From the NCBI GenBank assembly GCA_000002445.1, contig CH464491.1:2656001-2720000 (forward strand): a stretch of DNA of 64,000 nt. The letters run 5' to 3'. Shown piece after piece: positions 12,456 to 50,954 of the stretch. Position numbers and translations under genes: made by a program. The notes under the pieces were generated by a model. The model was not told where the DNA came from. It was given only the letters and a program-made list of their open reading frames with translations, and did no database searches. This stretch comes from Trypanosoma brucei. Its lineage: Eukaryota. Numbering within the stretch: position 1 is the stretch's first letter; each line of letters starts with the position of its first letter.

Positions 12456-12798
12456 TTGGTATAGTGGGTGAGGGAGACGGCATTAGGTGGTGACTGCGTC
12501 TAGCTTTCTTTTTTTATTTTACTTTCCTCGTATCACACGTTTCGTAACGGTATTCCCACAGACTGTGGAGGTTAGAAGCGGTGCATTGAATATAACCCGC
12601 TACTAACAGACATTTTTCACTACCGTGTTTGCATTACTTGTTCACAAGGACTTGTCGTTGTGTCGTGCGCAGGCGTTTCGTATTGTTGTCATTGTTTTTG
12701 TCCGATATTTTCACCTGTGAGAGTGCCAGCGCAGTGCATTTTCTTTCCCCTCTTTTTTTTTGCCAAAAACTGCACCAACAAACCAAAAATAAAAAATC

Positions 12799-14643: not shown

Positions 14644-15118
14644 GATCACGAAACAGCATTTTCTGGTTGTTAGTTGCGACCTTTTTTTCTTATTTGGCTC
14701 TCCATTTCTTTTGCTTTCGTTGCTGAGCGCACCGCCACACATTTGAAACTCCCCTCCACTGATATCAGCGCGTATTTTTACTTACTTTCATGTGCCCTGA
14801 CGAAGAAGCAACAATAAAATGGAAAGTGTAAAGCAGGGGGAGGGTGAAGCCAGATGTGCGAAGGAAAAGTAATGCTGTTTCTGTCTGCATAACTGTTTTA
14901 AACTTTTCAGAATGTTTTTAACTTTTGTATGTGCTAGTGTTAAGGTACCTTTTTCGTGATCTACTTCAGTCGTCGTTTTGTCTCCTACTGCATAATATCC
15001 CGCAAATGGCATAATGGGACAAGGGAAGGGGGCCACTGAAAGTCGAAAAAGGGGGCGAAAAAACGCTCAGGACTGCACGTAGTGCCAATATTTCCACTAA
15101 CGTTGGACAGCCGACTAC

Positions 15119-18100: not shown

Positions 18101-18697
18101 TCCTCACTACGTTTTATCAGGATACTTCGACTTCGAACGCCGATGACGGCACTCTGCCGACAAATAAACAGTAAGTCCCGTGTGGTGCAGACGTTATACG
18201 AGATCGGTCTGCTCTGGTCCCGCTTCTTCTTGGACAAACTGAAGGCCAACGCTGCCTTTTTTAGGCCGCATGTGCGCACTATATTACAACCTCTTGCCCT
18301 TGCGACTGCTACGCTGCGTCGCCTGGTGCGGAAACATTCCTTTGACCTGCAGCGGCTGGGTTCTTTTTGCGACGTTACTGATGTTGAAGTACGACTTTGT
18401 ATTTCCGCCGCGCTCTACCATACACTCCATCAGCGGCTGGCGTTCATGATCGGCAGGATGTCGAGCGTGGGGAAGAAAAAGTTCCTGATATTAATGACGG
18501 CGGTTTTAAAACGAAAAATGGGAGAACTGGGATCTAGGATCAACAGGAATAATCAAATGGAATCTTCTCTTCCCTCTGCAGCTGATTTGTTGCTGGTGGA
18601 GGGCGGTGATGGCGTAGTTTCAAGGGGTCTTGCGGCAGTGCGTTTCAGACCTGTCGAAACTGTGCGGTTTCAGGGATGTGCGACGCGCTCTGCATGA
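15119..18697 (+). CDS. TERT: Telomerase reverse transcriptase (TERT)
   Basis: 1192-aa ORF with the RT motifs in canonical order. Motif A is AARCYDHLPQEAVVNIM (cf. GAYDTIPQDRL). Motif B' is MGINQGSAVAMLLCDQLL (QGS...S..LC). Motif C is LLLRRVDDVLVVT (LLRLVDDFLLIT). Motif E is RWCGLLWD. The size matches the roughly 1190-aa kinetoplastid TERT. Confidence 0.85.
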   Translation: MAQMFPSVPGYDGPFSLKDFLHNYIGLQLRWSTPQENSTTLPPSNSNVVVVPPTGNFHVVVYVSRSAPPPQRSVRSVAVLSSCSNKMDGDHPQPSVPTHFHGRPLTSSVLKHPFWDALFSQIGPTAVSFIVLWAPIVVQFEASGGGLQVLGPPLKRSASCAVKRQPGAGWWEGKLKVSRTETLTQNDPHCFCIEGTSSPVALYRLNVPRLHLVEQSPLRSTADARHAVTLILEQLWIEHHKSSCSPSSDRDISQRLCGVATGSATNCCGDSCVVLAQARNQVNAVFPYTLLPVHDDAVSGNGTVKEYLIHVLHCALGSVCRMNIRGAAIKHTEFLEKRGKSVTSISQKAQTAGQENKMRAIPVGELTVPEPVVASYLETLFNMMWWRVPPRFVGGAVTADRVKFWGEEGTVLTRLREVTVDWLCCGRHEVFLLSHFLDGVPVSRIPWLRGFYTKEPARKRRSMIQQRVFLQLVLFLYQCVVPFLIRRSFHVACTSKSPYIFFFIPRAVWVRLTRREMRRVCIRRVKRMRSDTLSDPQMRGHAGLPPMALERVTSEGLMQLIGPSSQPVGDDSGGVSDVCKLRDSSSPLLYSDVRFLVDGSKLRPIARPRFGWQRSLLKAADGVGSSTLASALAKAGKYLATDGKAMWPSPNSAVLRDALRCLDAGVEERRITTGARQRAIGSHNDEYIEVRSFIQCARQFCTIPTLVQGETSAALLADATAVTMVRGDAARCYDHLPQEAVVNIMRGLVTHETYYSLKLTVVTLTTVKNVSKKTRSSHAESQLSSMKETNGSTVKHRKLQLSKRVKLVPGRYVQEGVLYGIARGCIAYEEQSVGSDSLVSGEEIRSVLQKHLQSHLVMLNGKMYIQRMGINQGSAVAMLLCDQLLERVDAALSSILSEHEEPALLLRRVDDVLVVTLSRAAASRCEDALRSGWSEIGFFCQEEKLRRVTCGQPVRWCGLLWDPVTLEFAVDWARLAKMMPYLAVRPRTGCEPLLSSLRFIRILRLRTPMTALCRQINSKSRVVQTLYEIGLLWSRFFLDKLKANAAFFRPHVRTILQPLALATATLRRLVRKHSFDLQRLGSFCDVTDVEVRLCISAALYHTLHQRLAFMIGRMSSVGKKKFLILMTAVLKRKMGELGSRINRNNQMESSLPSAADLLLVEGGDGVVSRGLAAVRFRPVETVRFQGCATRSA

Positions 18698-19060
18698 AAT
18701 GCAAGCTTTTCTCCTTCACGCGCACGCACAAGCGTCTTTTTTTATTTTATTTTGTTACCAACCTACATCCTTTTGATGTTTGCAGTTAATTTTGTTGCGA
18801 CCACTTGCTGCTTCCTCGAGGCACCGGTACGATTTTGGTTTTCCCTTATTTTATTGTGCGGAAAAAAAATGTCTTTCCCTTACTTATATTCGATTTCGCT
18901 CGTGCGTGTCTCTCTCTCCGTTAGCAATTAGTACATTCCTATAAGTAGGTGGGAGGAAAACGAACTTTGAGTGAAAGGAAACCCACTAGCTACAGGAAGG
19001 GTAGAAAGTGTTGAAATATACAATAAAAAAAAGAGGTAACAGCTGGCGGAGACGCTAATA

Positions 19061-20533
19061 ATGAAGTCCAAGGATGTGGAGGATGCTGGATGCGTTGGGC
19101 AGTGGATTGACAACCGAAAACGGGCAAGTGACGATGCTGACTCTTTCGTGAAATCAGCCATGACAATAAGTCAGTCGGCGTCATCCATTGGTGCCTCCGC
19201 GCAGACCCTACGCAATTTGGACAGAGGCCGAAAAAGGAGTGAATCCTCCAAGAAATCGGCTGGCAAGAAGACCAGTAGCGCACCGTCTTTACTTCCTCAG
19301 ATAAAGGTGAAATCTGCGAAGCAGGGCAAGGCGACGGGCAGACCACCGATTTCTGCCTCAAACCCCTCAGGAGGGGCGCGGAAGGGATCATTGAAGGGGA
19401 AGGCAACTGGTTCGATTTCTCTGACGTCTCAGAGCACAGGTGGTGGCAGCGTGGGGAAAAGGGGCAAGTCCCCCAAATCAAGAGGTGGGGCGAAAGGAGG
19501 GAAAAAGCGACCTTCATCGATTGGGAGGCCCTCAAGCAGGGGATCGAAGGGGTCATCTCGGCGGGGGTCTCGTTTAAGTCGAGGCAGTGGACGCACGAGC
19601 ACGAAGGGAAAAGGGGGGCGGAATTCGAGAGGAAAGAAAGGCAAAAAGTCTAAGCGTAGCAAATCTTTTGCGGGTGCCGATAAGATCACATATGCTATTT
19701 CTTCGTTAACTTTAGCGGAAGAAGACCAGCGAAGCAATATTTGGGCAATGGAAGAGACTGAGCGTGATGCTCTCCTCCCTGATTATCACCTACTCGTTAT
19801 AAACATGCTCCGGGCCCAAGTTGTTGAAGTAAATGCGCGCCAGCAGTCCTTAAACGATGCCTTCATGTCTAGACAGGGCAATGGTCTCAACTTTTTATTG
19901 GGAGATGACCCTGCCGCAGCACTGGAGCTTTTGCGGACGCAGATACGGTTAGAAATGCAGGGGGAAGTGGAAAAGCTCGCTTCGGCAAATGCGGTACTAA
20001 GTGGCCTTCTTGAGGAAAAGAAAGCTGAGTTAGAGGAAAAAACCAACGAGGCGCAGTCACTCCAGGACAAGGTCAATCGTAGGCTTGCCCGTTTTGAAGT
20101 GGATTGTGAAGCACTTCGCACTGAGGTCCAATCTGCATTGAAGACTGAACGTTTAGATATCGATAGAATGAAGCGTGAGCTCATTCGTCGCCTAGACATG
20201 GCAACCGCTGCGCTGCGTACGCCCAAGTATGATACAGCGCTGCGCTCCATGCAGGCACTGGTGCAGAGTGTGCAGGATGAGATACAGGAGCATCATGATA
20301 ACATGAGTAAGCTGATTGTATCAATTGAGGCTCAGGACACTTTTGTTCGCAACAAAAGCGATACAATGCACAGCAACTTTCCCGTCCGCTACAGAGAAGA
20401 GCTGAGGAAATTGGACAACGACAAGCTACTGAACCTGCTGGACATCTTGTCTTTCCACGATTCTGTAGTAGAAACTGTTGGTAAGACGTTGTATGTAATA
20501 AGTAGCACAGGTTACGCTACAAATGTTTTCTAG
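19061..20533 (+). CDS. Hypothetical protein: extremely basic S/K/G/R-rich N-terminal region (residues about 50-200) followed by an alpha-helical coiled-coil C-terminal half
   Basis: The run ..KKSAGKKTSS..KGKATGS..GKRGKSPKSRGGAKGGKKRPSSIGRPSSRGSKGSSRRGSRLSRGSGRTSTKGKGGRNSRGKKGKKSKRSKS.. is followed by heptad-rich sequence (LEMQGEVEKLASANAVLSGLLEEKKAELEEK..). 490 aa. Confidence 0.5.
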   Translation: MKSKDVEDAGCVGQWIDNRKRASDDADSFVKSAMTISQSASSIGASAQTLRNLDRGRKRSESSKKSAGKKTSSAPSLLPQIKVKSAKQGKATGRPPISASNPSGGARKGSLKGKATGSISLTSQSTGGGSVGKRGKSPKSRGGAKGGKKRPSSIGRPSSRGSKGSSRRGSRLSRGSGRTSTKGKGGRNSRGKKGKKSKRSKSFAGADKITYAISSLTLAEEDQRSNIWAMEETERDALLPDYHLLVINMLRAQVVEVNARQQSLNDAFMSRQGNGLNFLLGDDPAAALELLRTQIRLEMQGEVEKLASANAVLSGLLEEKKAELEEKTNEAQSLQDKVNRRLARFEVDCEALRTEVQSALKTERLDIDRMKRELIRRLDMATAALRTPKYDTALRSMQALVQSVQDEIQEHHDNMSKLIVSIEAQDTFVRNKSDTMHSNFPVRYREELRKLDNDKLLNLLDILSFHDSVVETVGKTLYVISSTGYATNVF

Positions 20534-21186
20534 TGAGGTGGCACCCGTGTTTTTGTTTTTCATTTTATTTTCAATTTTCACTCCCTTACATTCTTTCATC
20601 CCGTCACGCTCTGCCGCACACACTCTCCTTCGTGTTATTGACTTAAGTTATCTTAGCGTATTTCGTTATACGCTGTCCTAGAGGTTTGCTTTGTAACTCC
20701 AATGTATCTTTATGCGTCATAAATTAAGGCGGGCGACGGAGAAGGTGAGGGAACACAGAGAAAGAAAGAGAGTGCGGCTCCGTCCAGTTTCCCTGGTTGG
20801 TTGATGTAGTGTTAGAGCGAAGATAGGCGTATCCTTAAGTAGCCGCATGTTTTTCTATGTCCTCTTTGTCCCCCCGCCGTGTTTGCGTGGCATGTCGGTG
20901 TTACCCTCGTGCTTAAATTTTTTGGTTGGTACTCATTCGCCCCAAGCTTTTTTCCCACTTATGTCCCTCTTCTTTCAATTTCTTTTACATATATAAACTT
21001 TCATATATATATTTCCGTCCCCCAAAGGTACAAAATACTTTTAGTTGTTGCTTCATTAGTTCCTTTCCCCGTGTTTGACAGCCAACTGGGTTGCGAGAGA
21101 CAGTTGCGCGGCAGCACATCAAGGGGCGAACACTGGTGTTCTCCCCTGAGACGAAAAAGAAAGGGGAAAAGGCAAGGGATTGATCA

Positions 21187-24093
21187 TTGCCCGAACAGAT
21201 AGGAAGCAATATGAATCCATCTGGTCCCAGTGGTCACCATGAGGAGAGGTTAAGAAGCTCTGCACCGGTGTACACCAACGTGCGTCGCGAGGCACGAAGG
21301 ATGCAGCGTGAAGCGATGGAAGTTAACGCAAGGATAAGGGAAATAGAGGCTCGTGGGCAGATGAGACACAAACAAGAGCGGGTGATGTTGCGCGCCAAGG
21401 TTGACAACATCGTAGAGGGGCTTGTTGGAGGCACCGAAGGGATCGTCCCTCCCAGTGTGCTTGACCCACCTATTGAAAGGATACCAGAACCATGCTTTTT
21501 ACGGCCTACAGAGAAAAAACAAACATGTACAGGGTCGGGAATGGCTCCAGTGAAGTTAATTTCACTCGCTTCCAGTGCCGGCCGCATGCCCGATGACGTT
21601 CGTAGTGGCCGCTATCCAGGGGGCTCACCCTCTAAAGGTGTTACGCCTAGAAACCGTGTGGACGCCTCTGAATCCAAAGCGGGTGAGCCGCCGCGAGGGT
21701 TCCCCGTCCCCTTTGAATCCTCAGGGTTCCGGTGCCCCATTCAGTGGGCGGAGATGAGCCTTCATGAGGTGTTGATAACTGCATTAGGGCCCCGCTCCGA
21801 ACGGGAAAGGAGGGGTACGGATGTGCCTCCGAACCGTTTGCTTGTTAGTGTGGCGTCGCATCTACTAAATGAAGTTCTTTCGCGTGATACACGTTATGCG
21901 ACGTTATGGCCGCTTCTTCGGGACGTTGTCTTCAAGGGACTCTTCGCTCCGACAAATTTCAAGCAATCACCTTATATGGGTGGACGTGAACCCCCCAGTT
22001 ACCCCAGTTTTGTACCAGCAGCTGACTACTTTGGCTTGCGTTTGTGGTCGGATGAGTATCTTCTGAGTCGCAGGGCGGAGTTGCATCTTTCTGATAGGGT
22101 CACTGACTTGAACAGTGCGTTGAATAGCCGTGGGGATATTTTTCAATTTGCAGTCAAGCAAATTGAAAAAGCCAGCAAAAGGAGTGCTTTTCGAGCATGG
22201 CGAGCAGTTGTGCAGCGCAACCGAATTCTCCGAGACAACGTAGTAGCATACCTGAAGCGCGTCCGTCAGAGGATGGTTGTGGAGGGTAGCTTCCTGCGAT
22301 GGCGGCGCCTTGTTGTACAAACGAAGTTAGAGGAGCTGAGAGTGTCTCTGAAGGAATCGAATGTGCGCTTCTCTATTAGCGAGAGTAATAGTAAAGAAAC
22401 AATAAGGGAGCTGGAGGAGAGACTCGAGGAAGAGCGAAAGGGGGCTGAGGTGATGAAGTTGAAAATCGAATCACTCTCCATGCAGCTAGTTGAAAAGCAG
22501 ATGCTTGATCTCCGGACGCTGGACTCCACGTTGCGAAACTACCGCGCTATGTGTGGGGACGCCAAGAAGGAGAGTAAACGGTGGGAACGTTTGGCAAAAA
22601 CATTTTCGTGCCGTTCAGGGTGCCCGGTTTTCCCAGCATCGATGAAAAGGCATGCTCACAGCCTGCGTTCCATTGAGACTTCGTGTGTTGGTCAGGGCAC
22701 GCAAGCTTACGAACGTGTTGTGGACGCGCGCTGCTCCCTCGAGTCACTTCTGGTAGCCTGGATTAACTCTTTGATGAAGGATCAAAATGACCACTCTTGG
22801 AAGGCTGTAAGGAAGATTGAACTGGGGTCTGATGCTGGTGATTTCAGTGTCAGTGCTCTCTGTAAGTTAGTGCGGACATTGGATTCTATATACAACACCA
22901 GGGGCGCAGAGCATGTGATGTGTGGTTCAGCGGCCTCGACAAATCCAAGTCGTGCGACTTCTCTGACAAAATGTATCGAACTGCTGCGGGAAGGGAATGA
23001 ATCATCAACAGTAGTTTTCCAGGAGCTTGTCCAACTTATTCACAAGCAAACAGTGGATGGTCTTTTCCCTCCATTACTCTCCCACTGTTCGTATCTTGAC
23101 ACTTTTTACACCCCTTCAACCTTTTGTCAAAAACCCCATCCAACTGCTATGCTGTGGGTGCTGGCTACGCTTTTCGTTGGGTATGCGCGTTTGGTAGCGG
23201 GTGTTCCGTCATTTGCATCGCATGATATCGAGCAGCGGCTACGGTGTCAATCTGAGGCCTCAATAGGCTGCCTTGCCTTAGGCCCCGTGCCTGAGGAGGG
23301 GGAGGTTAACAAGCAACCTGAAGGCCGGAGCCGCAGCCAGAGTATCGTCAGTTCTCACATTTTGACGACAAACACGGTCATCAAAAAATCCGCCCGTCAC
23401 AGCCGTCCGCGAAGCACGGCGTCACGTAAAGTAGCCGAAGAGGCCGCTGACGAGAAAGATCAGGCGTGTGAGAAGGCAATTGTGGACACCGCTTCTGATG
23501 TTGAGGTGTACCTCAATTGCGAGTGTGGTACGGAGGAAGAGGGAGGATACTCCAGCGATGGCGAACTGACGACAAGTGAAACTGCCACGACTCACGAAAC
23601 CGATGGACTTGAAAAAAGCACGTCAGGTGCAACGGAAAAGATGAAGCATACGCCGGGTAGCAGCAGTAAACCACAGCGTCCTGCACGGAGGTCTCAGCTT
23701 CTCCCTTCAACGAGTAAACTGTTGGTTCCAGTTGGACAGCGAGAGTTTGTTAAGTTTCACCGAGACGAGGGAAAGCGTCAACGAATGTGGATAAGTGTTT
23801 GCCGTATTGTAACGTCACTAGTGGTGAGGTTTCGTATCCTCGACGTACCGACAAGCAGCGCCGTTCCTCCGAGCTTCGCTTCACCTATGTCGTTTTCTTC
23901 GTCTCTACCACGGCTTGTTAGTGGACGACACTCATTATTTTTTAACAGTGGACGGGAGTCAAGGAGGAGCCAGTCCGGTTTGTTTCCCGTTGCCAGTAGT
24001 CCCCCAAATCCAGCCACAAAACCCAAGAGAGGGGCGTCTCAGGCACACTCTACGCTGCGGCGGTGGCTGGATAAGGCTAGGAAGGCAGAGTAG
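21187..24093 (+). CDS. Hypothetical protein (968 aa) with central coiled-coil segment and Ser/Thr-rich C-terminal region
   Basis: Long same-strand ORF preceded by a polypyrimidine tract at about 20870-21060. No domain recognised. Confidence 0.5.
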   Translation: MPEQIGSNMNPSGPSGHHEERLRSSAPVYTNVRREARRMQREAMEVNARIREIEARGQMRHKQERVMLRAKVDNIVEGLVGGTEGIVPPSVLDPPIERIPEPCFLRPTEKKQTCTGSGMAPVKLISLASSAGRMPDDVRSGRYPGGSPSKGVTPRNRVDASESKAGEPPRGFPVPFESSGFRCPIQWAEMSLHEVLITALGPRSERERRGTDVPPNRLLVSVASHLLNEVLSRDTRYATLWPLLRDVVFKGLFAPTNFKQSPYMGGREPPSYPSFVPAADYFGLRLWSDEYLLSRRAELHLSDRVTDLNSALNSRGDIFQFAVKQIEKASKRSAFRAWRAVVQRNRILRDNVVAYLKRVRQRMVVEGSFLRWRRLVVQTKLEELRVSLKESNVRFSISESNSKETIRELEERLEEERKGAEVMKLKIESLSMQLVEKQMLDLRTLDSTLRNYRAMCGDAKKESKRWERLAKTFSCRSGCPVFPASMKRHAHSLRSIETSCVGQGTQAYERVVDARCSLESLLVAWINSLMKDQNDHSWKAVRKIELGSDAGDFSVSALCKLVRTLDSIYNTRGAEHVMCGSAASTNPSRATSLTKCIELLREGNESSTVVFQELVQLIHKQTVDGLFPPLLSHCSYLDTFYTPSTFCQKPHPTAMLWVLATLFVGYARLVAGVPSFASHDIEQRLRCQSEASIGCLALGPVPEEGEVNKQPEGRSRSQSIVSSHILTTNTVIKKSARHSRPRSTASRKVAEEAADEKDQACEKAIVDTASDVEVYLNCECGTEEEGGYSSDGELTTSETATTHETDGLEKSTSGATEKMKHTPGSSSKPQRPARRSQLLPSTSKLLVPVGQREFVKFHRDEGKRQRMWISVCRIVTSLVVRFRILDVPTSSAVPPSFASPMSFSSSLPRLVSGRHSLFFNSGRESRRSQSGLFPVASSPPNPATKPKRGASQAHSTLRRWLDKARKAE

Positions 24094-44226: not shown

Positions 44227-46167
44227 ATGTTCTTCTGGGGTTCGTACAACTTTTTTGAACCCCGACAGGCGGACCCCCCTAATCGGCCGCCGCTGCGTTA
44301 CCCCGTATATGTGCCCCCGTCGCTTTCCATGATGGCTGACGCTGGGATTGCAGAGCCCGAGAAAATTTTAAAAACTGAACAGGACGACATCCAAAGCACA
44401 TTGCAACATGTGGACAACCATCGTATCGTCGTGAAGCTGATTGGTTGTGGCCAAAAACATTTGGTGGGGCTTATGGGCCTGGCCCCCAAATCAAGCATGG
44501 GTTCTGCTTTGCCGCGTAGGGAAGGTGCCGTCACATCTGATATCGGTTCGAATGTGACATATGCACTGTATGGCATGGGAAGCAATCACAGTGGCCAGTT
44601 GGGCCATCGCCTGCCAACGTACAGCACCACATTGGTAAAACTCCAATTTGAGGAGTTGTTGCCACCAGGAGTCACCGTTTCTAGCATTGCCTGTGGTGAT
44701 AAATACACAGTTGTTTCTACTTCCGATGGGCTTGCGTTCGCCGCCGGAGATAACAGCTTTAGTCAACTTGGTACAGTGGGAAAAGGGCTTGGTTTTGCTC
44801 CTGTTCGTGGTATACATAACATTAAGCGAGTCTTCGCCGGTGGTAACGCAACCTTCGCCCTAGATGGTAACGGCCAACTCTTCTCATGGGGTGAAGCACA
44901 GTACGGACACCTGTGCCATGGAGACAACGGCCAGCGGTTGGATGTAAAAACACTGAAAACTGTGAACACCAATGTTTCCGTGCCTACAAGGATCGAATGG
45001 TTCGTCCGCCGTCACGTTACTATTGTGGATGTGTCAGTATCCCGAAGTCACGTGGTGTGCCGTAGCGGCGATGAAGTGTACACGTGTGGTGATGGTACAT
45101 ATGGAAAGCTGTGCTCAGGGAGTTTCGAATCGTCGTACTTACCTGTGCGTGTCAAATTTCCAGAGCGTACCCACCCTGAGCGTGTCTGTGCCATTGCTGC
45201 TGGGGATGATCATACGCTAATTCTTCGCGAATCAAGTGCCGTTGGTGCCGTTGTTTATTACTTCGGCAAAGCAAAAAACGGTGATGGGCAGTTGATCCCA
45301 GACATCATATCTTTGCCATCAAACGTTCAAAATATATTCGCTGGGCGAGGAACGTTTTCTGCGGCAACAACGAGTGATGGGCTTTTGTACGTATGGGGAA
45401 AGCAAGTGTACACTGGCTTGTCAAACGGTACTTCAGGTAAGGCTTCTCGCAGTTACCCGTGTAGCGTTGTGGCTTTAGAATCACATAACATTACCAGCGT
45501 CGCCGCAGGCGCCACGTTTGTAGTGGCGACCGGTGGTGAAAGGCGTGCCTGTGAAGGCATCGCCAACGAAGGGGAAAGATGGGATATAGTGATTCCACAC
45601 GACGATAGAACTGAGTCAGGGTATGGCGATTCCTTCAGCTCGAGATACGAAAGTGCGGTTCAGGCGTTTCTCACACAGTACCTTGGTCCATCAGTCGCTG
45701 GAGCATATATATCTGGCATTCCAGAAGCTCCGTTGGCGACCAATCCGAACGCCAACAGGTTTAAACCCATCGGTGCACACTCCCTAACCGTAGGACAAAA
45801 GGTGCGGTTGTGGATGACAGACGTGTACGCATTAGCCTCCATAACGAAAGTGTTTGGACGCAAGGAGCAATCAAATCACGTTGATATCAGCGGCAAGACC
45901 AACGAAGAAGAAAGAGATCATCAACAACACCTTCAAATAAAGAATGAAGAGGAAGAGAAGGAAAATTTAGGGCTCTCAGAGGTCAGTGGCTCGGCCGATG
46001 CACCGGGTTATCGCTTCTGTATTGAGTGGCAAAGGGATGATTGGAGAGACGAGGAAGTTACGTTGTACTCTGACGATGAAACTTTAGAGGAAACAAACCC
46101 CAACAGATGGCAGCCACTGTGGTTCCTCTACGACGAAACAGCTGGAAACTATGTCGTCGGAAAATGA
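44227..46167 (+). CDS. RCC1-repeat (regulator of chromosome condensation-like beta-propeller) protein, 646 aa
   Basis: Repeated blades each ending in the G..GQLG motif: YALYGMGSNHSGQLGH, FAAGDNSFSQLG, LFSWGEAQYGHLCHG, VYTCGDGTYGKLC, YYFGKAKNGDGQL, LYVWGKQVYTGL. Confidence 0.7.
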   Translation: MFFWGSYNFFEPRQADPPNRPPLRYPVYVPPSLSMMADAGIAEPEKILKTEQDDIQSTLQHVDNHRIVVKLIGCGQKHLVGLMGLAPKSSMGSALPRREGAVTSDIGSNVTYALYGMGSNHSGQLGHRLPTYSTTLVKLQFEELLPPGVTVSSIACGDKYTVVSTSDGLAFAAGDNSFSQLGTVGKGLGFAPVRGIHNIKRVFAGGNATFALDGNGQLFSWGEAQYGHLCHGDNGQRLDVKTLKTVNTNVSVPTRIEWFVRRHVTIVDVSVSRSHVVCRSGDEVYTCGDGTYGKLCSGSFESSYLPVRVKFPERTHPERVCAIAAGDDHTLILRESSAVGAVVYYFGKAKNGDGQLIPDIISLPSNVQNIFAGRGTFSAATTSDGLLYVWGKQVYTGLSNGTSGKASRSYPCSVVALESHNITSVAAGATFVVATGGERRACEGIANEGERWDIVIPHDDRTESGYGDSFSSRYESAVQAFLTQYLGPSVAGAYISGIPEAPLATNPNANRFKPIGAHSLTVGQKVRLWMTDVYALASITKVFGRKEQSNHVDISGKTNEEERDHQQHLQIKNEEEEKENLGLSEVSGSADAPGYRFCIEWQRDDWRDEEVTLYSDDETLEETNPNRWQPLWFLYDETAGNYVVGK

Positions 46168-46617
46168 AATGGTAGGTGATACACAAAAGCTCGTTGGAAT
46201 AGAAAGCTGTGTACAACTGAATATATATTTTTTAAATCATAAAAAAGGGATGAACAAAGCCCCATCGAACAAGGTCGATGCGACACATATCATAAGGCAC
46301 ACAAAGAAGAATACGAAACAGCTATTACAGTAAACTGAGCGACAGAAGAAATTACAAAAAAATATTAAAAACTATAAAAAACCTGCGGAAAGAAGCTAAC
46401 TGACATACTTACGAAAAACCATTAAAATAATACGCAAGAACAAAAAAATAATTCAACTTCATCCCCTATCAAAAAAAAAAAAGAACACACAAACGAAAGG
46501 TAAATTAAAAATAAAACGGAAAAATAAAAAAAAAGATAGGTCGATATGACAGATGCGGCGTGAAGCTCTGCCACTGGTGCATCAGTAGCTCGGCATTACT
46601 GTGTTCGATGCTCTGCG

Positions 46618-46712
46618 CTCAGTGGACATGATGCTCCGCCGCCCATATATCCCGTTATGTATATCCTGTGTGCGCTCTAGTTCCGTTGGGACCCTGAAGA
46701 GTAAGCACACTA
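46618..46712 (+). ncRNA. Second C/D-box-like snoRNA candidate (C box variant AUGAUGC at 46628-46634; D box CUGA at 46694-46697). It is repeated at about 47440-47534.
   Basis: ..gtggacATGATGCtccgcc...(about 60 nt)...gggacccCTGAagagtaag. The C box deviates at the last position and the terminal stem is weak, so this is tentative. Confidence 0.35.
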
Positions 46713-46761
46713 AACCATGCATTATACATGACCATACCCCATATATACACAATTGTAAAGC

Positions 46762-46828
46762 TCTTTTATGTAGTGTGCGTACCACGAAAGTAGCAGGTAC
46801 TGCACACGAAACTGGAGAGCGAGACTCT
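46762..46828 (+). ncRNA. Possible single-hairpin H/ACA-like snoRNA (kinetoplastid AGA-box type). It is repeated at about 47584-47650.
   Basis: An imperfect inverted repeat GTGTGCGTACC (46774-46784) / GGTAC(T)GCACAC (46796-46807) with a 11-nt loop is followed by AGA triplets (46816-46818, 46822-46824). This is weak and based on structure only. Confidence 0.25.
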
Positions 46829-46859
46829 TCATTTCGACTATGGACCATATGGTTGTAGC

Positions 46860-46942
46860 CGTTGAATGATGACTGACAAAACATCACAGACTTTGATGAC
46901 CCCATGAACAAGAAAAATTGTCGCCCCAGACTGATTTTCACT
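46860..46942 (+). ncRNA. C/D-box snoRNA candidate (copy 1)
   Basis: ccGTTGAaTGATGActgac..(C box UGAUGA at 46867-46872) ...cttTGATGAcc (C' box at 46894-46899) ...ccccagaCTGAttttca (D box CUGA at 46931-46934). The 5' UGAA and 3' UUCA can pair as a 4-bp terminal stem flanking the C and D boxes. Length is about 80 nt. It lies on the same strand as the PTU, typical of kinetoplastid C/D snoRNAs. Confidence 0.6.
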
Positions 46943-47681
46943 CCCACCCCTGTATACTGACACTGGCACTTTCCTGCCGCTGTCACTGTCGCTGTTTTCG
47001 TTCATACTCTCAAATACTCTCACATTCACACACTCTTTCTCCTTCCCCTCCTTTTGACCCTCTTTGTTGTTGCCACCGTGAAGTGATTGACACCTAGGCC
47101 GATGTAAAGCCGTCGCAGATGGACGTCGATATCTTGTGAAAACAGTACTATTTTATGCCCTGACTGATCGCCGTGGCCGCCCCACTCACTACGTTTGTTG
47201 TGTAGTGTACATCCCTCTCATTTTGCTCCGTCCCCCCTCCCTCTCCTTCTGTTTCCCTTTTCTCCCCTCTTCCTTTCAGTTGGCACCGCGACAAGGTCAG
47301 CCTGAGGGCACACCTTCAGTGTGTGTACGGCCTCGGGAGGGCGTATATCCGCTCGAGTCGCAGAGCGAGGGAAATGGTGGCGTGAAGCTCTGCCACTGGT
47401 GCATCAGTAGCTCGGCATTACTGTGTTCGATGCTCTGCGCTCAGTGGACATGATGCTCCGCCGCCCATATATCCCGTTATGTATATCCTGTGTGCGCTCT
47501 AGTTCCGTTGGGACCCTGAAGAGTAAGCACACTAAACCATGCATTATACATGACCATACCCCATATATACACAATTGTAAAGCTCTTTTATGTAGTGTGC
47601 GTACCACGAAAGTAGCAGGTACTGCACACGAAACTGGAGAGCGAGACTCTTCATTTCGACTATGGACCATATGGTTGTAAC

Positions 47682-47764
47682 CGTTGAATGATGACTGACA
47701 AAACATCACAGACTTTGATGACCCCATGAACAAGAAAAATTGTCGCCCCAGACTGATTTTCACT
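47682..47764 (+). ncRNA. C/D-box snoRNA candidate (copy 2 of the 46860-46942 element, with one SNP upstream of the C box)
   Basis: Same C (47689-47694), C' and D boxes, displaced by exactly 822 bp. Confidence 0.6.
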
Positions 47765-48722
47765 CCCACCCCTGTATACTGACACTGGCACTTTCCTGCC
47801 GCTGTCACTGTCGCTGTTTTCGTTCATGCCCTCAAATACTCTCACATACTCACACATTCACACACTCTTTCTCCTTCCCCTCCTTTTGACCCTCTTTGTT
47901 GTTGCCACCGTGAAGTGATTGACACCTAGGCCGATGTAAAGCCGTCGCAGATGGACGTTGATATCTTGTGAAAACAGTACTATTTTATGCCCTGACTGAT
48001 CGCCGTGGCCGCCCCACTCACTACGTTTGTTGTGTAGTGTACATCCCTCTCATTTTGCTCCGTCCCCCCTCCCTCTCCTTCTGTTTCCCTTTCCTCCCCT
48101 CTTTCTTTAAGTTGGCACCGCGACAGTTTATTTTGAGTTTTTGCCCTTTATGGTTTATCTCTATGAAAACTGTCGAAGATTAAGGGAAATAATGGCGTGA
48201 AGCTCTGCTGCTCGTGCATCAGTAGCTCGGCGTAATTTTGTTTGATGCTCTGCGCAATGTATACTCTTTGTTGAACTGTATTTTTGTTTACTTTTTGACT
48301 CTGAGTTTTTACTTGTGATTGTGATGCTCAAACCCTTTTTTTTCGCCTGATGCGCTGTATGTAATGGACTTGATGCTTATCTCTTTCGGACAATGATGAC
48401 GCATGTTGTAGTGTGACGCTCGATGATTTAATCGTGTGATGCTCCTCTGCACTGCCCTTTGTTGTTTGTTAAGGTGGTCGATGCTCAGTCCTATAGCACA
48501 TGATGCTCTGCCGTTGTTATACTCGCTATGCACGAAGTTGGTACTCTAGTCTGTTTGACCTTGATGAGTTGCCTGCTTTGGTATGTTGCATCGCACATAA
48601 TTCCCAGTGCATCTTATGTGGAAACTGTACTTGCGTTAATCTACCTATTTTTTATTTGTCACTTTTTTTGTACATTTTCCCCTTCTTTTTTTAACTCTTG
48701 ATCATGGACGTGAAAAGTTAGG

Positions 48723-49700
48723 TTGGTTACTGGCTGTGCTATTTCTTTTTTTTTTACTTTGTTGGTGGTGCTTGTTTGTGATATCATGACGGTGTTGTCA
48801 CGGGTGCTTCTGGGTGCAGCGGTGGGAAGTGTGAGTGCGGCATTTAACATAGCGTGGTGTGATTCATCATTGCAAAGCGGTTCTGTGCTTTCTGTAAACA
48901 GTTTACTGCCTGTGGATGAAATTATTAGAGCGGATGGAAAGAACGCCAGTCTTAAGTCTTGGGGTGTTCCGTGGGTTGAGGATTGGGACTGTCTTGAGGC
49001 GAAGGACGGAGCGGCGGGAAAAAGTTCGGGGCATAAACGCCAGCTGATTTTGATACGTCACGGGCAATACCAAAATGAGAAGAGTAGTGATGACCGGCAA
49101 CGCACTCTTACTCAACTTGGGGAGGAACAGGCGAGACTCACCGGAAGGTATTTGTGGCAGGCGTTTCAGCAGAAACGTTTGGTGAAGGAACTGGGTAGTG
49201 AACCGGCGCTTGGGGTTGATAACTTCATGGGCGGGTTGTTGCGTTTCCATGAGCCGAAAGAAATCTACGTCTCGGATATGACTCGTGCTCAGCAAACTGT
49301 CAAACTCATAACGGAAGCTTTTCCCTACCACATACGTGCGCGAGTAAAAACTGATCCCATTCTTAGGGAGCGGTATCCCTGTGACCCTCAGCCGCCGCAT
49401 AAGCACCGATCTGCAGCGCACAGCGACATGTTAGCGGTGGAGGAGGTGTTCAAAAAATATTTTCATAGACCCTTAAAGGACGAGTCGTCTGTCGAGGTTA
49501 TTGTGGGACACGCCAATGTCATTCGGTATTTGGTGTGCCGCGCACTGCAGTTGCCCCCAGAAGCGTGGCTGCGCATTTCGCTTCCCCACTGTAGCATCAC
49601 AAGTCTCGTGATTGGTGCAAACGGTCACGTCAGTTTATCTTCGCTTGGGTCGGCAGGGCACCTGCCCGTCGACATGGTCACAACTCATAACGTTCCGTAA
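48723..49700 (+). CDS. PGAM5-like histidine-phosphatase-family (phosphoglycerate mutase fold) Ser/Thr phosphatase with N-terminal membrane anchor
   Basis: N-terminal hydrophobic segment (AISFFFTLLVVLVCDIMTVLSRVLLGAAVG). WVEDWDCLE resembles the PGAM5 WDxNWD motif. LILIRHGQY is the catalytic RHG motif. C-terminal GHANVIRY is the second His. Confidence 0.6.
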   Translation: MVTGCAISFFFTLLVVLVCDIMTVLSRVLLGAAVGSVSAAFNIAWCDSSLQSGSVLSVNSLLPVDEIIRADGKNASLKSWGVPWVEDWDCLEAKDGAAGKSSGHKRQLILIRHGQYQNEKSSDDRQRTLTQLGEEQARLTGRYLWQAFQQKRLVKELGSEPALGVDNFMGGLLRFHEPKEIYVSDMTRAQQTVKLITEAFPYHIRARVKTDPILRERYPCDPQPPHKHRSAAHSDMLAVEEVFKKYFHRPLKDESSVEVIVGHANVIRYLVCRALQLPPEAWLRISLPHCSITSLVIGANGHVSLSSLGSAGHLPVDMVTTHNVP

Positions 49701-50954
49701 TTTGTTTTAAAAGCGGTGAAAGGGGGAGGGGTCGCCGCGGAAATAATACTAAGGGCGGGACCTTTTCTGTTTTCCTTCTTTTTTCCTTACTTGGGTGTGC
49801 GTCAGATGAAATAAGGAAAAAAAACTGAAGGAGAAGGACGGTCAGGTCGGTGTCGTTCAGCTTTGCGCGAAGGCTTGTGCCGGCAGTTTATGTCTCTAAG
49901 ACTCAGGTGATGTGTTTTCCTGCATCTCTCACCCAAAGCACACACACACTTACGTGCGCATGGTTTTCCTCTCTTTATGTCTCTATTTGTTTGCGTCCCC
50001 TTTAGTGGTGTAAAAAGCGAGGAGATCCTTCGGCTCTCATCCTTTTAGCTTCTTTCTCCCCTTCGTTTTGTTTCTTTCTTTAATCCCTCGTTCACCTCTT
50101 TGCTTATTCAAGGTATTTTTGTGGGGGTTACCGTTTTCAGCTAAGACAGATAAGTGTATTTTCGTTAGTGTCTTTTTTTTTTTTTGCAAGCCACTGCATA
50201 GTAAGCCCTTTTGTTGTTTTTAAATCTCCCCACTCAAGGCCCTCATGAACAATCCCACCGGTGAGTGTACTCATTTAGTCTCGTGCGTGGACCTAGGAGC
50301 GCCAAGATTTCATTCACTTGAGATAGGGGTGACAGCCAGAGGCAGGAAAAAAATACAGCAACAACGAAAGTTGTGGAAGTGTGGACGTGATGAAGAAAAA
50401 TTATTTACTTCTGTTTGGAGAGGGTTCAGGAACACTCTCCATGACGTTACCATAATTAATCCATTCTCTGATCACGTTCAGTCGCTTCTTCTTTCCTCCC
50501 CCTTTCCGCGTCCCCTGTGTTAGTTACAACATTTAACGTGATGAAAAACCTTTCATGCTGTGTGACGTACTCCCTTATGAGGGCAGGCACAAGCTGCTTG
50601 CGGCCTAGTGTCATGCAATTGATTATAGACGGCATTCTGAAAAAGTAACTTACTCTCTCTCCCCTCCTTTTGTTTACCTCCTCTCTCTCTCTGTGTGTGT
50701 GTGTGTGTGTCTGACCTCTTTTTTTTTTCTGTTCTGAGAGTGTATCTGTTTGCCTCCACCATAACGGGTACTACACATAACAACTACTTTGACAAACAAA
50801 GTTTGATTTACCTATCTTATTTATCTTGTTTCACATGGCACTGCGCATCATTTTATCTGCATTCGAAGAATCTGTATTATGTGCTCTCTCGCTTCTACTT
50901 TTCACGCCTCTCGTTCCTGTTTCTATTTCATTCACATATTTATCTTGAAGAAAG

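What the first reader, a model, noticed from the sequence alone, without database searches (positions are those of the whole stretch)
46555..48255. Tandemly reiterated about 822-bp unit carrying C/D-box snoRNA genes
Two near-identical 822-bp units plus the degenerate start of a third sit between the RCC1-repeat gene and the PGAM5-like gene. Each unit has at least one textbook C/D snoRNA. It has a C box UGAUGA, a C' box UGAUGA, a D box CUGA, and a 4-bp terminal stem UGAA/UUCA around the boxes. Each unit also has a second C/D-like element and a hairpin-AGA (H/ACA-like) element. The 134-aa and 85-aa ORFs the track reports here are repeated verbatim. They are almost certainly shadows of the repeat, not genes. 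Kinetoplastid snoRNAs are characteristically organised as tandem repeats of mixed C/D and H/ACA clusters processed from polycistronic precursors, and this fits that pattern. The guide (about 10-20 nt upstream of D/D', e.g. ...aaaaattgtcgccccaga|CUGA) predicts a specific rRNA 2'-O-methylation target that could be mapped.
Basis: partly seen in the sequence, partly recalled or inferred. Interest (0 to 1): 0.7.

Follow-up and report, generated by a model that had tools for sequence, protein, structure and literature searches.

The report
Known trypanosome SLA1 snoRNA gene array
This is the long-known "SLA1 locus" of Trypanosoma brucei chromosome 11, a tandem repeat encoding four very abundant small nucleolar RNAs, so it is a correct but ordinary finding; the reference sequence probably shows only 2 of a dozen or more copies.

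Summary
Two near-identical units with an 822-bp period (46557-48125) and decayed remnants lie between the RCC1-repeat gene and the PGAM5-like phosphatase gene. The window is T. brucei brucei TREU927 chromosome 11.

Each unit carries four published RNA genes on the + strand, all full-length Rfam hits (82-140 bits):
- an snR30/U17-like RNA (Rfam snoTBR17, "TB11Cs2C3");
- SLA1 (TB11Cs2H1);
- C/D snoRNA TB11Cs2C2 (snoTBR5).

These are not ordinary methylation guides. Published work gives SLA1 a role as pseudouridine-28 guide and chaperone of the spliced-leader RNA. It gives snR30, C1 and C2 roles in rRNA processing.

- Two decayed snR30 relics reach 48569.
- The C1 D-guide best matches the LSU P-loop, with the +5 position on the second G of GGGG. 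This was tested only on surrogate kinetoplastid rDNA.
- A long-read T. b. equiperdum assembly holds at least 12 units, so two copies here is probably assembly collapse.

Novelty: already known. Interest: low.

The parts
44227..46167 (+). Upstream flanking gene: RCC1-repeat protein (646 aa)
   Evidence: Exact match to XP_829097.1 of T. brucei brucei TREU927. Pfam RCC1 domains are recorded for its homologues. It is the syntenic left neighbour of the array in every Trypanosoma locus examined.
46557..47378 (+).
46557..46731 (+). 5'-truncated snR30-like copy at the left edge of the array. It has the middle and 3' hairpins but lacks the roughly 90-nt 5' domain.
   Evidence: Rfam snoTBR17 at 46614-46733, 139.8 bits. 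The sequence upstream of 46557 is A-rich and unrelated to 47287-47378. The same edge truncation is seen in the long-read array L063, which has 12 3'-motifs but only 11 5'-motifs.
46757..46827 (+). SLA1 (TB11Cs2H1), copy 1: single-hairpin AGA-box H/ACA-like RNA
   Evidence: Rfam RF01537, 82.1 bits. Hairpin fold z = -3.75. 5 of 18 pairs show compensatory changes across 4 species. The pocket strands UAUGUA and GAAACU bracket U28 of the spliced leader. The AGA box is at 46822-46824, 14 nt from the pocket and 3 nt from the end.
46863..46938 (+).
   Evidence: Rfam RF00295, 92 bits. Published probe oligos match 46863-46882 and 46917-46937. The residues U22, U32 and U35 reported as cross-linked in PMC2978370 are all U when numbered from 46863. 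The guide blocks are invariant in 5 species.
47037..47066 (+). Core of the polypyrimidine tract in the C1-C2 spacer
   Evidence: 90% pyrimidine. Its role as an RNA-processing signal is inferred.
47080..47171 (+). TB11Cs2C2 (snoTBR5), copy 1: 92-nt box C/D snoRNA
   Evidence: Rfam RF00292, 106.6 bits. The cross-linked residues U9, U16, U24, U34, U41, U47 and U53 of PMC2978370 are all U when numbered from 47080. C47127 versus T47959 is a between-repeat variant.
47217..47279 (+). Polypyrimidine tract followed by AG (47278-47279), immediately 5' of the snR30-like gene
   Evidence: 90-97% pyrimidine. A pyrimidine tract at the same position is seen in T. cruzi, T. vivax and T. grayi. Its role as a trans-splice acceptor is inferred.
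47287..47553 (+). The only full-length snR30/U17-like RNA gene ('TB11Cs2C3', Rfam snoTBR17) in the window, about 267 nt. It has a 5' hairpin (47287-47351), a middle hairpin (47376-47466) and a 3' hairpin (47476-47547). The m1-like AUAUCCU and m2 AAACCAU (47534-47540) motifs lie in the 3' hairpin, and ACA is at 47548-47550.
   Evidence: Rfam covers only 47436-47555. Cross-species conservation starts near 47287. RNAalifold gives 72 pairs, 8 of them compensatory, including 3 in the 5' hairpin.
47379..48125 (+). Repeat unit 2, conserved part, with a 10-bp insertion at 47826-47835
47579..47649 (+). SLA1 (TB11Cs2H1), copy 2
   Evidence: Rfam, 82.1 bits. Identical to copy 1.
47685..47760 (+). TB11Cs2C1 (snoTBR7), copy 2
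   Evidence: Rfam, 92 bits. Identical to copy 1.
47912..48003 (+). TB11Cs2C2 (snoTBR5), copy 2
   Evidence: Rfam, 109.1 bits.
48172..48307 (+).
   Evidence: Local alignment score 113 against a shuffled mean of 37.7. There is no Rfam hit even at E <= 1.
48430..48569 (+). Decayed snR30 relic 2
   Evidence: 65% identity to 47373-47524, z = 10.1 against shuffles. No relic of SLA1, C1 or C2 was found (z = 1.6).
48786..49700 (+). Downstream flanking gene: PGAM5-like histidine phosphatase (304 aa)
   Evidence: Pfam His_Phos_1, E = 1.6e-17. Exact match to T. brucei proteins named PGAM5 / phosphoglycerate mutase.

Best explanation
The region is the SLA1 / TB11Cs2 snoRNA gene array of Trypanosoma brucei brucei TREU927 chromosome 11. 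Each repeat unit of about 822-832 bp encodes, in cyclic order on the + strand, four RNAs. (1) An snR30/U17-like RNA of about 270 nt acts in 18S rRNA processing. (2) SLA1 is a single-hairpin AGA-box H/ACA-like RNA. Its pocket pairs around U28 of the spliced-leader RNA, and it guides pseudouridine-28 and chaperones SL RNA maturation. (3) TB11Cs2C1 is a 76-nt box C/D RNA that pairs with 18S rRNA and the 5'ETS. Its D-guide also matches the LSU P-loop. [quoted passage not shown] The genes lie in the sense orientation inside a long RNA polymerase II polycistronic unit. They are separated by polypyrimidine tracts and are cut out of trans-spliced, polyadenylated precursors. Tandem reiteration supplies the very high dosage of these RNAs. 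Shown here: the identity and boundaries of the four genes, their conservation and covariation, the synteny, the SLA1-SL pairing, C1 guide complementarity on surrogate rRNA, and the copy-number difference between assemblies. Taken from the literature: the functions, the abundance and the mode of transcription. Inferred: that the pyrimidine tracts act as processing signals, and that the two-copy representation in this reference is a collapse of an array of a dozen or more units.
For: Rfam gives full-length hits above the gathering score for all four families in both units, with E-values from 1e-16 to 1e-35. The flanking proteins are exact matches to T. brucei brucei TREU927. Published TB11Cs2C1 probe oligos match the window. 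Cross-linked U positions published for C1 and C2 are all U at the predicted numbering. PMC2978370 describes this locus as SLA1 + snR30 + TB11Cs2C1 (76 nt) + TB11Cs2C2 (92 nt) and gives the processing functions. PMC6411936 equates TB11Cs2H1 with SLA1 and TB11Cs2C3 with snR30, and ranks C2, SLA1, snR30 and C1 as numbers 1, 2, 4 and 9 in abundance. PMC9283944 covers SLA1 and pseudouridine-28. [quoted passage not shown] The same four genes occur in the same cyclic order directly after the RCC1 orthologue in T. equiperdum, T. b. gambiense, T. vivax, T. cruzi and T. grayi. Covariation supports the SLA1 hairpin (5 of 18 pairs) and the three-domain snR30-like RNA (8 of 72 pairs). The SLA1 pocket selects SL U28 with 6 + 3 bp, and the AGA box is 14 nt away. 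The SL sequence was confirmed in PMC2926603. All ORFs of 250 aa or more in the window are on the + strand. There are at least 12 units in long-read T. b. equiperdum and at least 13 in two T. cruzi assemblies with long contigs.
Against: Nothing contradicts the identification. Several uncertainties remain. The ends of the RNAs are inferred from conservation, Rfam and published lengths, not from reads mapped here. The primary locus papers (Roberts 1998, Liang 2005, Barth 2005, Hury 2009) were not available to read. Guide-target tests used rDNA from uncultured kinetoplastids, not T. brucei. On those surrogates C2 showed nothing above background, and the C1 D-guide hit is only marginally better than shuffled guides. 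No exact complement of the m1 or m2 motif exists in the surrogate SSU. The copy-number collapse is inferred from a different strain.
Confidence: 0.95

Rival explanations
1. This is an ordinary cluster of modification-guide snoRNAs. On this view the C/D RNAs simply direct 2'-O-methylation of rRNA by the +5 rule, and the AGA-box RNA directs an rRNA pseudouridine.
For: The C1 D-guide forms 11 bp (one G.U) with the LSU P-loop on both surrogate rDNAs, with +5 on the second G of GGGG. The target context is invariant in 11 of 11 kinetoplastid contigs that reach it. The review PMC6562600 labels TB11Cs2C1 '(U31)'. PMC9283944 lists TB11Cs2C1 as guide for SSU Um1899.
Against: PMC2978370 states that C1 and C2 are as abundant as U3, are 'not involved in methylation as initially proposed', and act in rRNA processing. 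It supports this with cross-links to srRNA-2 and -6, SSU and the 5'ETS, and with RNAi defects for C2. The SLA1 target is the SL RNA, not rRNA. The fourth gene is an snR30-type processing RNA. The P-loop duplex energy of -22.4 kcal/mol is only 2-3 sd better than the best hits of shuffled guides, and one of 30 shuffles beat it on L017.
Confidence: 0.2
2. TREU927 really has only two units, so the difference from the array of 12 or more units in T. b. equiperdum is a true strain difference and not an assembly collapse.
For: Three independent assemblies (TREU927, DAL972, T. equiperdum OVI) each show two units with no N gaps. The two units differ slightly from each other.
Against: Two units, one carrying each unique boundary, is the minimal representation that assemblers produce for a tandem array of near-identical units about 830 bp long. 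The only assembly of this subgenus examined that has multi-megabase contigs shows at least 12 units. T. cruzi shows the same pattern: 1 copy in one assembly and at least 13 in two assemblies with longer contigs. These RNAs are among the most abundant snoRNAs.
Confidence: 0.15
3. The repeated 134-aa and 85-aa ORFs are real, duplicated protein-coding genes.
For: They are open reading frames repeated verbatim.
Against: They have no Pfam match. They start with GTG in a eukaryote. The 134-aa ORF is antisense to the transcription unit. Both lie directly over four conserved structured RNA genes, and their duplication is fully explained by the DNA repeat.
Confidence: 0.01

Closest known systems
T. brucei SLA1 / TB11Cs2 snoRNA locus (SLA1, snR30 homologue TB11Cs2C3, TB11Cs2C1, TB11Cs2C2), as described in PMC2978370 and PMC6411936
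   Same: It is this locus. The organism, gene content, RNA lengths, gene order, probe sequences and cross-linked-U positions all match.
   Different: Nothing of substance differs. The window shows a two-unit version with a 5'-truncated snR30 copy at the left edge and two decayed snR30 relics on the right.
snR30/U17 H/ACA snoRNA of yeast and vertebrates
   Same: The 3'-terminal hairpin carries an m1-like motif (AUAUCCU) and an exact m2 motif (AAACCAU) on opposite strands. ACA directly follows the hairpin and lies 7 nt after m2. All of these are invariant in four Trypanosoma species. A role in 18S processing is reported.
   Different: The m1 motif is one nucleotide shorter than the AUAUUCCUA consensus (consensus quoted from my own knowledge). 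No clear ANANNA H box was seen. There is an extra conserved 5' hairpin domain. The RNA was first catalogued as a fibrillarin-associated 'C/D' RNA, and Rfam still types it as CD-box.
U31 (SNORD31) / yeast snR67, C/D guides for the LSU P-loop Gm (assignment from my own knowledge; the label '(U31)' is given in PMC6562600)
   Same: The C1 D-guide UGUCGCCCCAG is complementary to the P-loop CUGGGGCGGCA, with +5 on the second G.
   Different: C1 is reported mainly as a processing RNA that pairs with SSU rRNA and the 5'ETS through its D'-side block. That pairing overlaps the degenerate D' box itself.
Typical trypanosomatid reiterated snoRNA clusters, such as the neighbouring TB11Cs3 cluster
   Same: Both have mixed C/D and single-hairpin AGA-box genes on the same strand as the polycistronic unit, and both are tandemly reiterated in several species.
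   Different: Most clusters encode low-abundance modification guides. This one encodes abundant RNAs with special functions.

Membership tests
Box C/D snoRNA: TB11Cs2C1 (Rfam RF00295 snoTBR7) | Covariance-model score at or above the family's gathering threshold, over the full model length | tested here: met
   92.0 bits against a threshold of 45, model positions 1-75 of 75, in both units.
Box C/D snoRNA: TB11Cs2C1 (Rfam RF00295 snoTBR7) | C box (RUGAUGA) near the 5' end and D box (CUGA) near the 3' end | tested here: met
   AUGAUGA at 46866-46872 and CUGA at 46931-46934. Both are invariant in 5 species.
Box C/D snoRNA: TB11Cs2C1 (Rfam RF00295 snoTBR7) | Internal C' and D' boxes | tested here: inconclusive
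   C' is UGAUGA at 46894-46899 (UGACGA in T. vivax and T. cruzi). No canonical CUGA D' box lies in the right place, only CAGA/AGAC at 46887-46891.
Box C/D snoRNA: TB11Cs2C1 (Rfam RF00295 snoTBR7) | Terminal 5'/3' stem bringing the C and D boxes together | tested here: inconclusive
   UGAA/UUCA gives 4 bp in TREU927 and OVI. It becomes UGCA/UUCG in DAL972 and IVM-t1, which breaks one pair, and it is not conserved in other species.
Box C/D snoRNA: TB11Cs2C1 (Rfam RF00295 snoTBR7) | Guide of at least 10 nt upstream of D or D' that is complementary to rRNA, with the target at the 5th pair | tested here: met
   The D-guide forms 11 bp (one G.U) at positions 2-12 with the LSU P-loop, and position 5 pairs with the second G. 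This is on surrogate kinetoplastid rDNA only, and the energy is only marginally above shuffled controls.
Box C/D snoRNA: TB11Cs2C1 (Rfam RF00295 snoTBR7) | Association with fibrillarin/NOP1, NOP56/58 and SNU13, and actual methylation of the predicted site | not testable with these tools
   The literature conflicts. PMC2978370 says it is not a guide. PMC9283944 lists it for SSU Um1899.
Box C/D snoRNA: TB11Cs2C2 (Rfam RF00292 snoTBR5) | Covariance-model score above gathering, and C and D boxes present | tested here: met
   106.6 and 109.1 bits against a threshold of 44. GUGAUUGA lies near the 5' end and CUGA near the 3' end, conserved in 4 species.
Box C/D snoRNA: TB11Cs2C2 (Rfam RF00292 snoTBR5) | Complementarity to rRNA (published targets: srRNA-2 and srRNA-6) | tested here: inconclusive
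   No duplex better than the shuffled-guide background was found on the two surrogate rDNAs. T. brucei rRNA itself was not available. Published cross-links support the interaction.
Trypanosomatid single-hairpin AGA-box H/ACA-like RNA: SLA1 (Rfam RF01537 TB11Cs2H1) | Covariance-model score above gathering | tested here: met
   82.1 bits against a threshold of 40, model positions 1-70 of 70.
Trypanosomatid single-hairpin AGA-box H/ACA-like RNA: SLA1 (Rfam RF01537 TB11Cs2H1) | Single hairpin with an internal pocket, supported by covariation | tested here: met
   MFE -25.8 kcal/mol, z = -3.75. 18 consensus pairs, 5 with compensatory double changes, across 4 species.
Trypanosomatid single-hairpin AGA-box H/ACA-like RNA: SLA1 (Rfam RF01537 TB11Cs2H1) | AGA box 3 nt from the 3' end and about 14-15 nt from the pocket | tested here: met
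   AGA at 46822-46824, with 3 nt after it in the Rfam match and 14 nt from the pocket. It is invariant in 4 species. The true 3' end was not measured.
Trypanosomatid single-hairpin AGA-box H/ACA-like RNA: SLA1 (Rfam RF01537 TB11Cs2H1) | Pocket strands complementary to the sequences flanking SL RNA U28 | tested here: met
   GAAACU pairs with SL 22-27 (6 bp) and UAUGUA with SL 30-32 (3 bp). U28 is the best-scoring U in the 39-nt SL, with a total of 9 against 6 for the runner-up.
snR30/U17 H/ACA snoRNA | m1 (AUAUUCCUA) and m2 (AAACCAU) motifs on opposite strands of the internal loop of the 3'-terminal hairpin | tested here: met
   AUAUCCU (one nt shorter than consensus) and exact AAACCAU are invariant in 4 species and sit on opposite strands of the 3' hairpin in the consensus fold. 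The consensus motifs are quoted from my own knowledge of Atzorn et al. 2004, a paper cited.
snR30/U17 H/ACA snoRNA | ACA box directly after the 3' hairpin, 3 nt from the 3' end | tested here: inconclusive
   ACA at 47548-47550 directly follows the hairpin and is invariant. The 3' end was not measured.
snR30/U17 H/ACA snoRNA | Hinge H box (ANANNA) between the hairpins | tested here: not met
   The hinge reads CCCAUAUAUCCCG in T. brucei, GCGUGACUAUCCCG in T. cruzi and ACGCAGCUGUCCCG in T. vivax. No conserved ANANNA was found.
snR30/U17 H/ACA snoRNA | m1 and m2 pair with 18S rRNA; required for 18S processing; bound by Cbf5 | tested here: inconclusive
   No exact complement of either motif exists in the two surrogate SSU rRNAs. 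The function is asserted in the literature, but the primary paper was not available.
Trypanosomatid reiterated snoRNA gene cluster | Tandem head-to-tail repeats of a unit holding several C/D and H/ACA-like genes, on the sense strand of the surrounding polycistronic unit | tested here: met
Trypanosomatid reiterated snoRNA gene cluster | Transcribed as a Pol II polycistron and processed from trans-spliced, polyadenylated precursors | not testable with these tools
   This is stated in PMC3273796 and PMC6562600. Here only conserved polypyrimidine tracts followed by AG were seen.

The most novel reading that the evidence does not exclude
The roughly 270-nt 'snR30' RNA may be a composite RNP rather than a plain H/ACA RNA. 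It combines an snR30-type 3' hairpin (m1, m2, ACA) with C-box-like elements. Two UGAUGCUC motifs lie 23 nt apart in the middle hairpin and are conserved in four species, and a CUGA-like motif lies in the 3' hairpin. It was first catalogued as the fibrillarin-associated C/D RNA TBR17. It is still typed 'CD-box' in Rfam and 'C/D snoRNA' in a 2019 supplementary table, while other papers call it H/ACA. If it binds both fibrillarin-type and Cbf5-type proteins, it would be an unusual dual-class nucleolar RNA.
Probability: 0.1. Interest if true: 0.45.

Novelty: already known. Interest (0 to 1): 0.1.

Why it matters
As a discovery it adds little. The locus, its four RNAs and their functions have been studied since the 1990s, and all four are in Rfam. 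Three practical points may still be useful.

1. The TREU927, DAL972 and OVI assemblies show 2 units, where a long-read assembly of the same subgenus shows at least 12. Dosage, RNAi or knock-out design and read mapping at this locus should therefore not trust the reference copy number.
2. Rfam's snoTBR17 model covers only the 3' 119 nt of an RNA of about 270 nt, and it is typed as CD-box. Annotation pipelines will therefore mis-size and mis-class this gene.
3. The D-guide of TB11Cs2C1 fits the universally methylated LSU P-loop G by the canonical +5 rule. That bears on the unresolved question of whether this 'processing' snoRNA also methylates.

Tried and rejected
- Tandem Repeats Finder found nothing, because its longest period is 500.
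- The first exact look-up of the RCC1 protein failed, probably because the reference I gave included the stop codon. The exact look-up of the same ORF without its stop codon later succeeded.
- The primary locus papers were not held: Roberts 1998 PMC109026, Liang 2005 PMC1370750 and Hury 2009 PMC2620742. Repeat size, copy number and the '270 nt' figure could therefore not be checked against them. The abstract details of Roberts 1998 that I recalled were used only as leads.
- A literature search on the TBR names returned only diabetes papers.
- I considered that the C1 D-guide might target the 18S segment UCUGGGCGACA, which lies 11 nt downstream of the D'-side target. All 53 metagenome hits have GGG there, not the GGGG the guide needs, so that duplex would require a bulged C. 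The LSU P-loop is the better match.
- The C2 guide segments gave nothing above the shuffled-guide background on surrogate rDNA.
- Exact complements of snR30 m1 and m2 are absent from the surrogate SSU.
- No relic of SLA1, C1 or C2 was found downstream of unit 2 (z = 1.6).
- The SLA1 cluster is not at the syntenic site in Leishmania tarentolae or Leptomonas pyrrhocoris.
- In T. theileri only C1 was detected.
- Two ORFs of identical length (1192 aa) at 15119 and 35317 looked like a duplication but are unrelated.
- Bacterial-type promoter and terminator scans were not run, because they do not apply to trypanosomes.


Full report
**Observation.** The repeat is real. 46557-46856 and 47379-47678 are 100% identical with an 822-bp offset. 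47004-47293 and 47836-48125 are 98% identical with an 832-bp offset. The extra 10 bp is an insertion at 47826-47835 in a CACATACTCA-type microsatellite. After 47293/48125 the two units diverge. A third partial copy begins at about 48172. Tandem Repeats Finder missed the array only because its period limit is 500.

**What it is.** A scan against Rfam gives full-length matches far above the gathering score for four families in each unit, all on the + strand:
- snoTBR17 at 46614-46733 and 47436-47555 (139.8 bits);
- TB11Cs2H1 at 46757-46827 and 47579-47649 (82.1 bits);
- snoTBR7 at 46863-46937 and 47685-47759 (92 bits);
- snoTBR5 at 47080-47169 and 47912-48001 (107-109 bits).

The flanking RCC1-repeat protein is an exact match to XP_829097.1 of T. 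brucei brucei TREU927, on a 5.26-Mb contig. The downstream gene is the protein annotated as PGAM5 / phosphoglycerate mutase. The window is therefore chromosome 11 of the T. brucei reference.

The literature describes exactly this cluster. PMC2978370 describes TB11Cs2C2 (92 nt) in a cluster with SLA1, the snR30 homologue and TB11Cs2C1 (76 nt). PMC6411936 equates TB11Cs2H1 with SLA1 and TB11Cs2C3 with snR30. Two independent consistency checks tie the window to the published molecules. First, the Northern-probe oligos for TB11Cs2C1 in the supplement of PMC6411936 match 46863-46882 and 46917-46937. Second, every residue reported as a cross-linked U is a U when the RNAs are numbered from 46863 and 47080. 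For C1 these are U22, U32 and U35. For C2 they are U9, U16, U24, U34, U41, U47 and U53. The C/T difference between the two C2 copies (47127 versus 47959) fits the paper's remark about differences between repeats.

The Rfam TBR17 model is 119 nt. However, conservation among T. brucei, T. cruzi, T. vivax and T. grayi begins about 150 nt further upstream, near 47287, directly after a polypyrimidine tract and an AG at 47278-47279. RNAalifold on four species gives a three-domain structure of 72 pairs, 8 of which have compensatory double changes:
- a 5' hairpin at 47287-47351, with 3 of the compensatory pairs;
- a long middle hairpin at 47376-47466;
- a 3' hairpin at 47476-47547, followed at once by ACA at 47548-47550.

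The 3' hairpin carries AUAUCCU and AAACCAU on opposite strands. Both are invariant in all four species. They correspond to the m1 and m2 motifs of snR30/U17 (consensus motifs from my own knowledge). No conserved H box was seen.

It follows that the leftmost copy (46557-46731) lacks the 5' domain, because the array edge cuts the gene. Only one full-length copy is present in the window. To the right of unit 2 there are two decayed snR30-derived relics, at 48172-48307 and 48430-48569 (z = 10 against shuffles). There is no detectable relic of the other three genes.

**How the parts work.**

*SLA1.* It folds as a single hairpin (z = -3.75) with 5 of 18 pairs showing compensatory changes. Its pocket strands are GAAACU and UAUGUA. 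They pair with spliced-leader positions 22-27 (6 bp) and 30-32 (3 bp), which leaves U28 and G29 unpaired. U28 is the best-scoring U in the 39-nt leader. The AGA box lies 14 nt from the pocket and 3 nt from the end of the match. The SL sequence was confirmed in PMC2926603. This agrees with the published role of SLA1 as guide for pseudouridine-28 and, mainly, as a chaperone of SL RNA maturation.

*TB11Cs2C1.* Two blocks are invariant in five species: AACAUCACAGACUUUGA and UGUCGCCCCAG. T. brucei rRNA was not available to me. I therefore searched the metagenome collection for sequences carrying the complements of both blocks. This recovered 36 kinetoplastid-type 18S fragments and two complete rDNA units, L050 and L017. 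On both units the best duplex for the D'-side block is the 18S segment GGUCUGUGAUG. I infer that this is the SSU site where PMC2978370 mapped a cross-link (adduct at U1900). Its energy is not better than that of shuffled guides.

It forms 11 bp (one G.U) at positions 2-12 upstream of box D, and position 5 pairs with the second G of GGGG. That context is invariant in all 11 kinetoplastid contigs that reach it. The energy (-22.4 kcal/mol) is only 2-3 sd better than the best hits of shuffled guides, so the hit is suggestive and not proven. By my own knowledge this G corresponds to the universally methylated E. coli G2251, which U31/snR67 guides in other eukaryotes. The review PMC6562600 does label TB11Cs2C1 '(U31)'. 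The literature is not consistent on this RNA. [quoted passage not shown] PMC9283944 lists it as guide for SSU Um1899.

[quoted passage not shown] My surrogate rDNA test showed nothing above background. This is uninformative, given how distant the surrogates are.

**Expression context.** All ORFs of 250 aa or more in the 64-kb window are on the + strand, as are all the RNA genes. Each unit has two pyrimidine-rich tracts, at 47037-47066 and 47217-47276, which are 90-97% pyrimidine. The second is followed by AG and is conserved in position in four species. [quoted passage not shown] That the tracts seen here serve this purpose is my inference. The four RNAs rank 1st (C2), 2nd (SLA1), 4th (snR30) and 9th (C1) among all snoRNAs in the published small-RNP RNA-seq table.

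**Comparative picture and copy number.** The same four genes, in the same cyclic order, lie directly after the RCC1 orthologue in several species:

| Species / assembly | Units seen | Period |
|---|---|---|
| T. equiperdum OVI | 2 | 840 bp |
| T. b. gambiense DAL972 | 2 | 832 bp |
| T. grayi | about 1.5 | 691 bp |
| T. vivax | at least 6 | 1494 bp (unit also contains TB11Cs3H1) |
| T. cruzi | 1 in one assembly; at least 13 in two assemblies with longer contigs | about 736 bp |

The cluster was not found at this site in Leishmania tarentolae or Leptomonas. The chromosome-scale T. b. equiperdum IVM-t1 assembly, which I take to be long-read, has at least 12 units of 831-832 bp that are still running at the end of the 10-kb flank. 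Its leftmost snR30 copy is truncated in the same way as in the window. Two units, one carrying each unique boundary, is what a collapsed tandem array looks like. The window's copy number is therefore probably an under-count, although this was not tested on TREU927 reads. The window and OVI are 99.4% identical across the locus, apart from an 18-bp microsatellite expansion.

**The ORFs.** The 134-aa, 85-aa and 105-aa ORFs have no Pfam match and start with GTG. The 134-aa ORF is antisense to the transcription unit. All of them overlap the RNA genes.

**Verdict.** The locus is already known in detail, so novelty is nil and interest is low. The points worth keeping are:
- the true extent of the snR30-like gene, and its mis-sizing and mis-typing in Rfam;
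- the edge-truncated and decayed copies;
- the probable collapse of the array in the reference;
- the fit of the C1 D-guide to the P-loop G by the canonical +5 rule.

Noticed in passing
window 50236-50307, with candidates at about 50384-50476 and 50535-50645: A second snoRNA cluster (TB11Cs3) lies after the PGAM5-like gene. Rfam finds TB11Cs3H1 at 93.8 bits. By eye, two C/D-like elements follow it (GUGAUGA ... CUGA, one with a CGUGA/UCACG terminal stem). It is single-copy in the window, but it is a tandem array in Leishmania tarentolae (4 copies, 1127-bp period) and Leptomonas pyrrhocoris (5 copies, 746-bp period).
   Followed up: partly
L002 (T. vivax) 12595-21647: In T. vivax the SLA1-locus genes and TB11Cs3H1 share one 1494-bp repeat unit. 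The two clusters that the phosphatase gene separates in T. brucei are fused into one array there, and no gene is called for 10 kb after RCC1.
   Followed up: no
window 48200-48620: The motif GATGCTC occurs 5 times in 420 bp and 16 times in the whole 64-kb window, 9 of them in this locus. It is the C-box-like motif of the snR30 middle hairpin. This suggests that several partial snR30 fragments decayed in place just upstream of the PGAM5-like gene.
   Followed up: partly
window 47436-47466 and 47500-47515; alignment A5: The snR30-like RNA is classed inconsistently. Rfam types it 'CD-box', and the PMC6411936 supplement types it 'C/D snoRNA'. PMC2978370 calls it H/ACA. It has two UGAUGCUC motifs conserved in four species and a CUGA-like motif that is not conserved in T. 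grayi.
   Followed up: partly
window 46863-46866 and 46937-46940; L063 and L064: The C1 terminal stem UGAA/UUCA of TREU927 and OVI reads UGCA/UUCG in T. b. gambiense and T. b. equiperdum IVM-t1. These are two substitutions at different pair positions and are not compensatory.
   Followed up: yes
window 46873-46876: A CUGA tetranucleotide directly follows the C box of TB11Cs2C1 (UGAUGA-CUGA). In other species it reads UUGA or CCGA/AUGA, so it is probably not a functional D' box.
   Followed up: partly
window 47004-47035 and 47826-47860; L001 12795: A CACATACTCA-type microsatellite in the C1-C2 spacer accounts for the length differences between units (10 bp) and between strains (18 bp in T. equiperdum OVI).
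   Followed up: yes
L063 12581-21728: Within the long T. b. equiperdum array, 7 of 12 SLA1 copies differ from the canonical sequence. One example is GAAACU changed to GAAACC in the pocket strand, in 3 copies. Unit lengths also alternate between 831 and 832 bp. This could be real heterogeneity or long-read sequencing error.
   Followed up: no
L006 (T. theileri) 12274-13222: In T. theileri only the C1 gene is detected (two copies, 872-bp period). None of the conserved motifs of SLA1, C2 or snR30 occurs between them. The other genes are therefore either strongly diverged or located elsewhere.
   Followed up: partly
window 50655-50712: A (CT)n run followed by a (TG)n dinucleotide run lies in the spacer after the TB11Cs3 cluster.
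   Followed up: no
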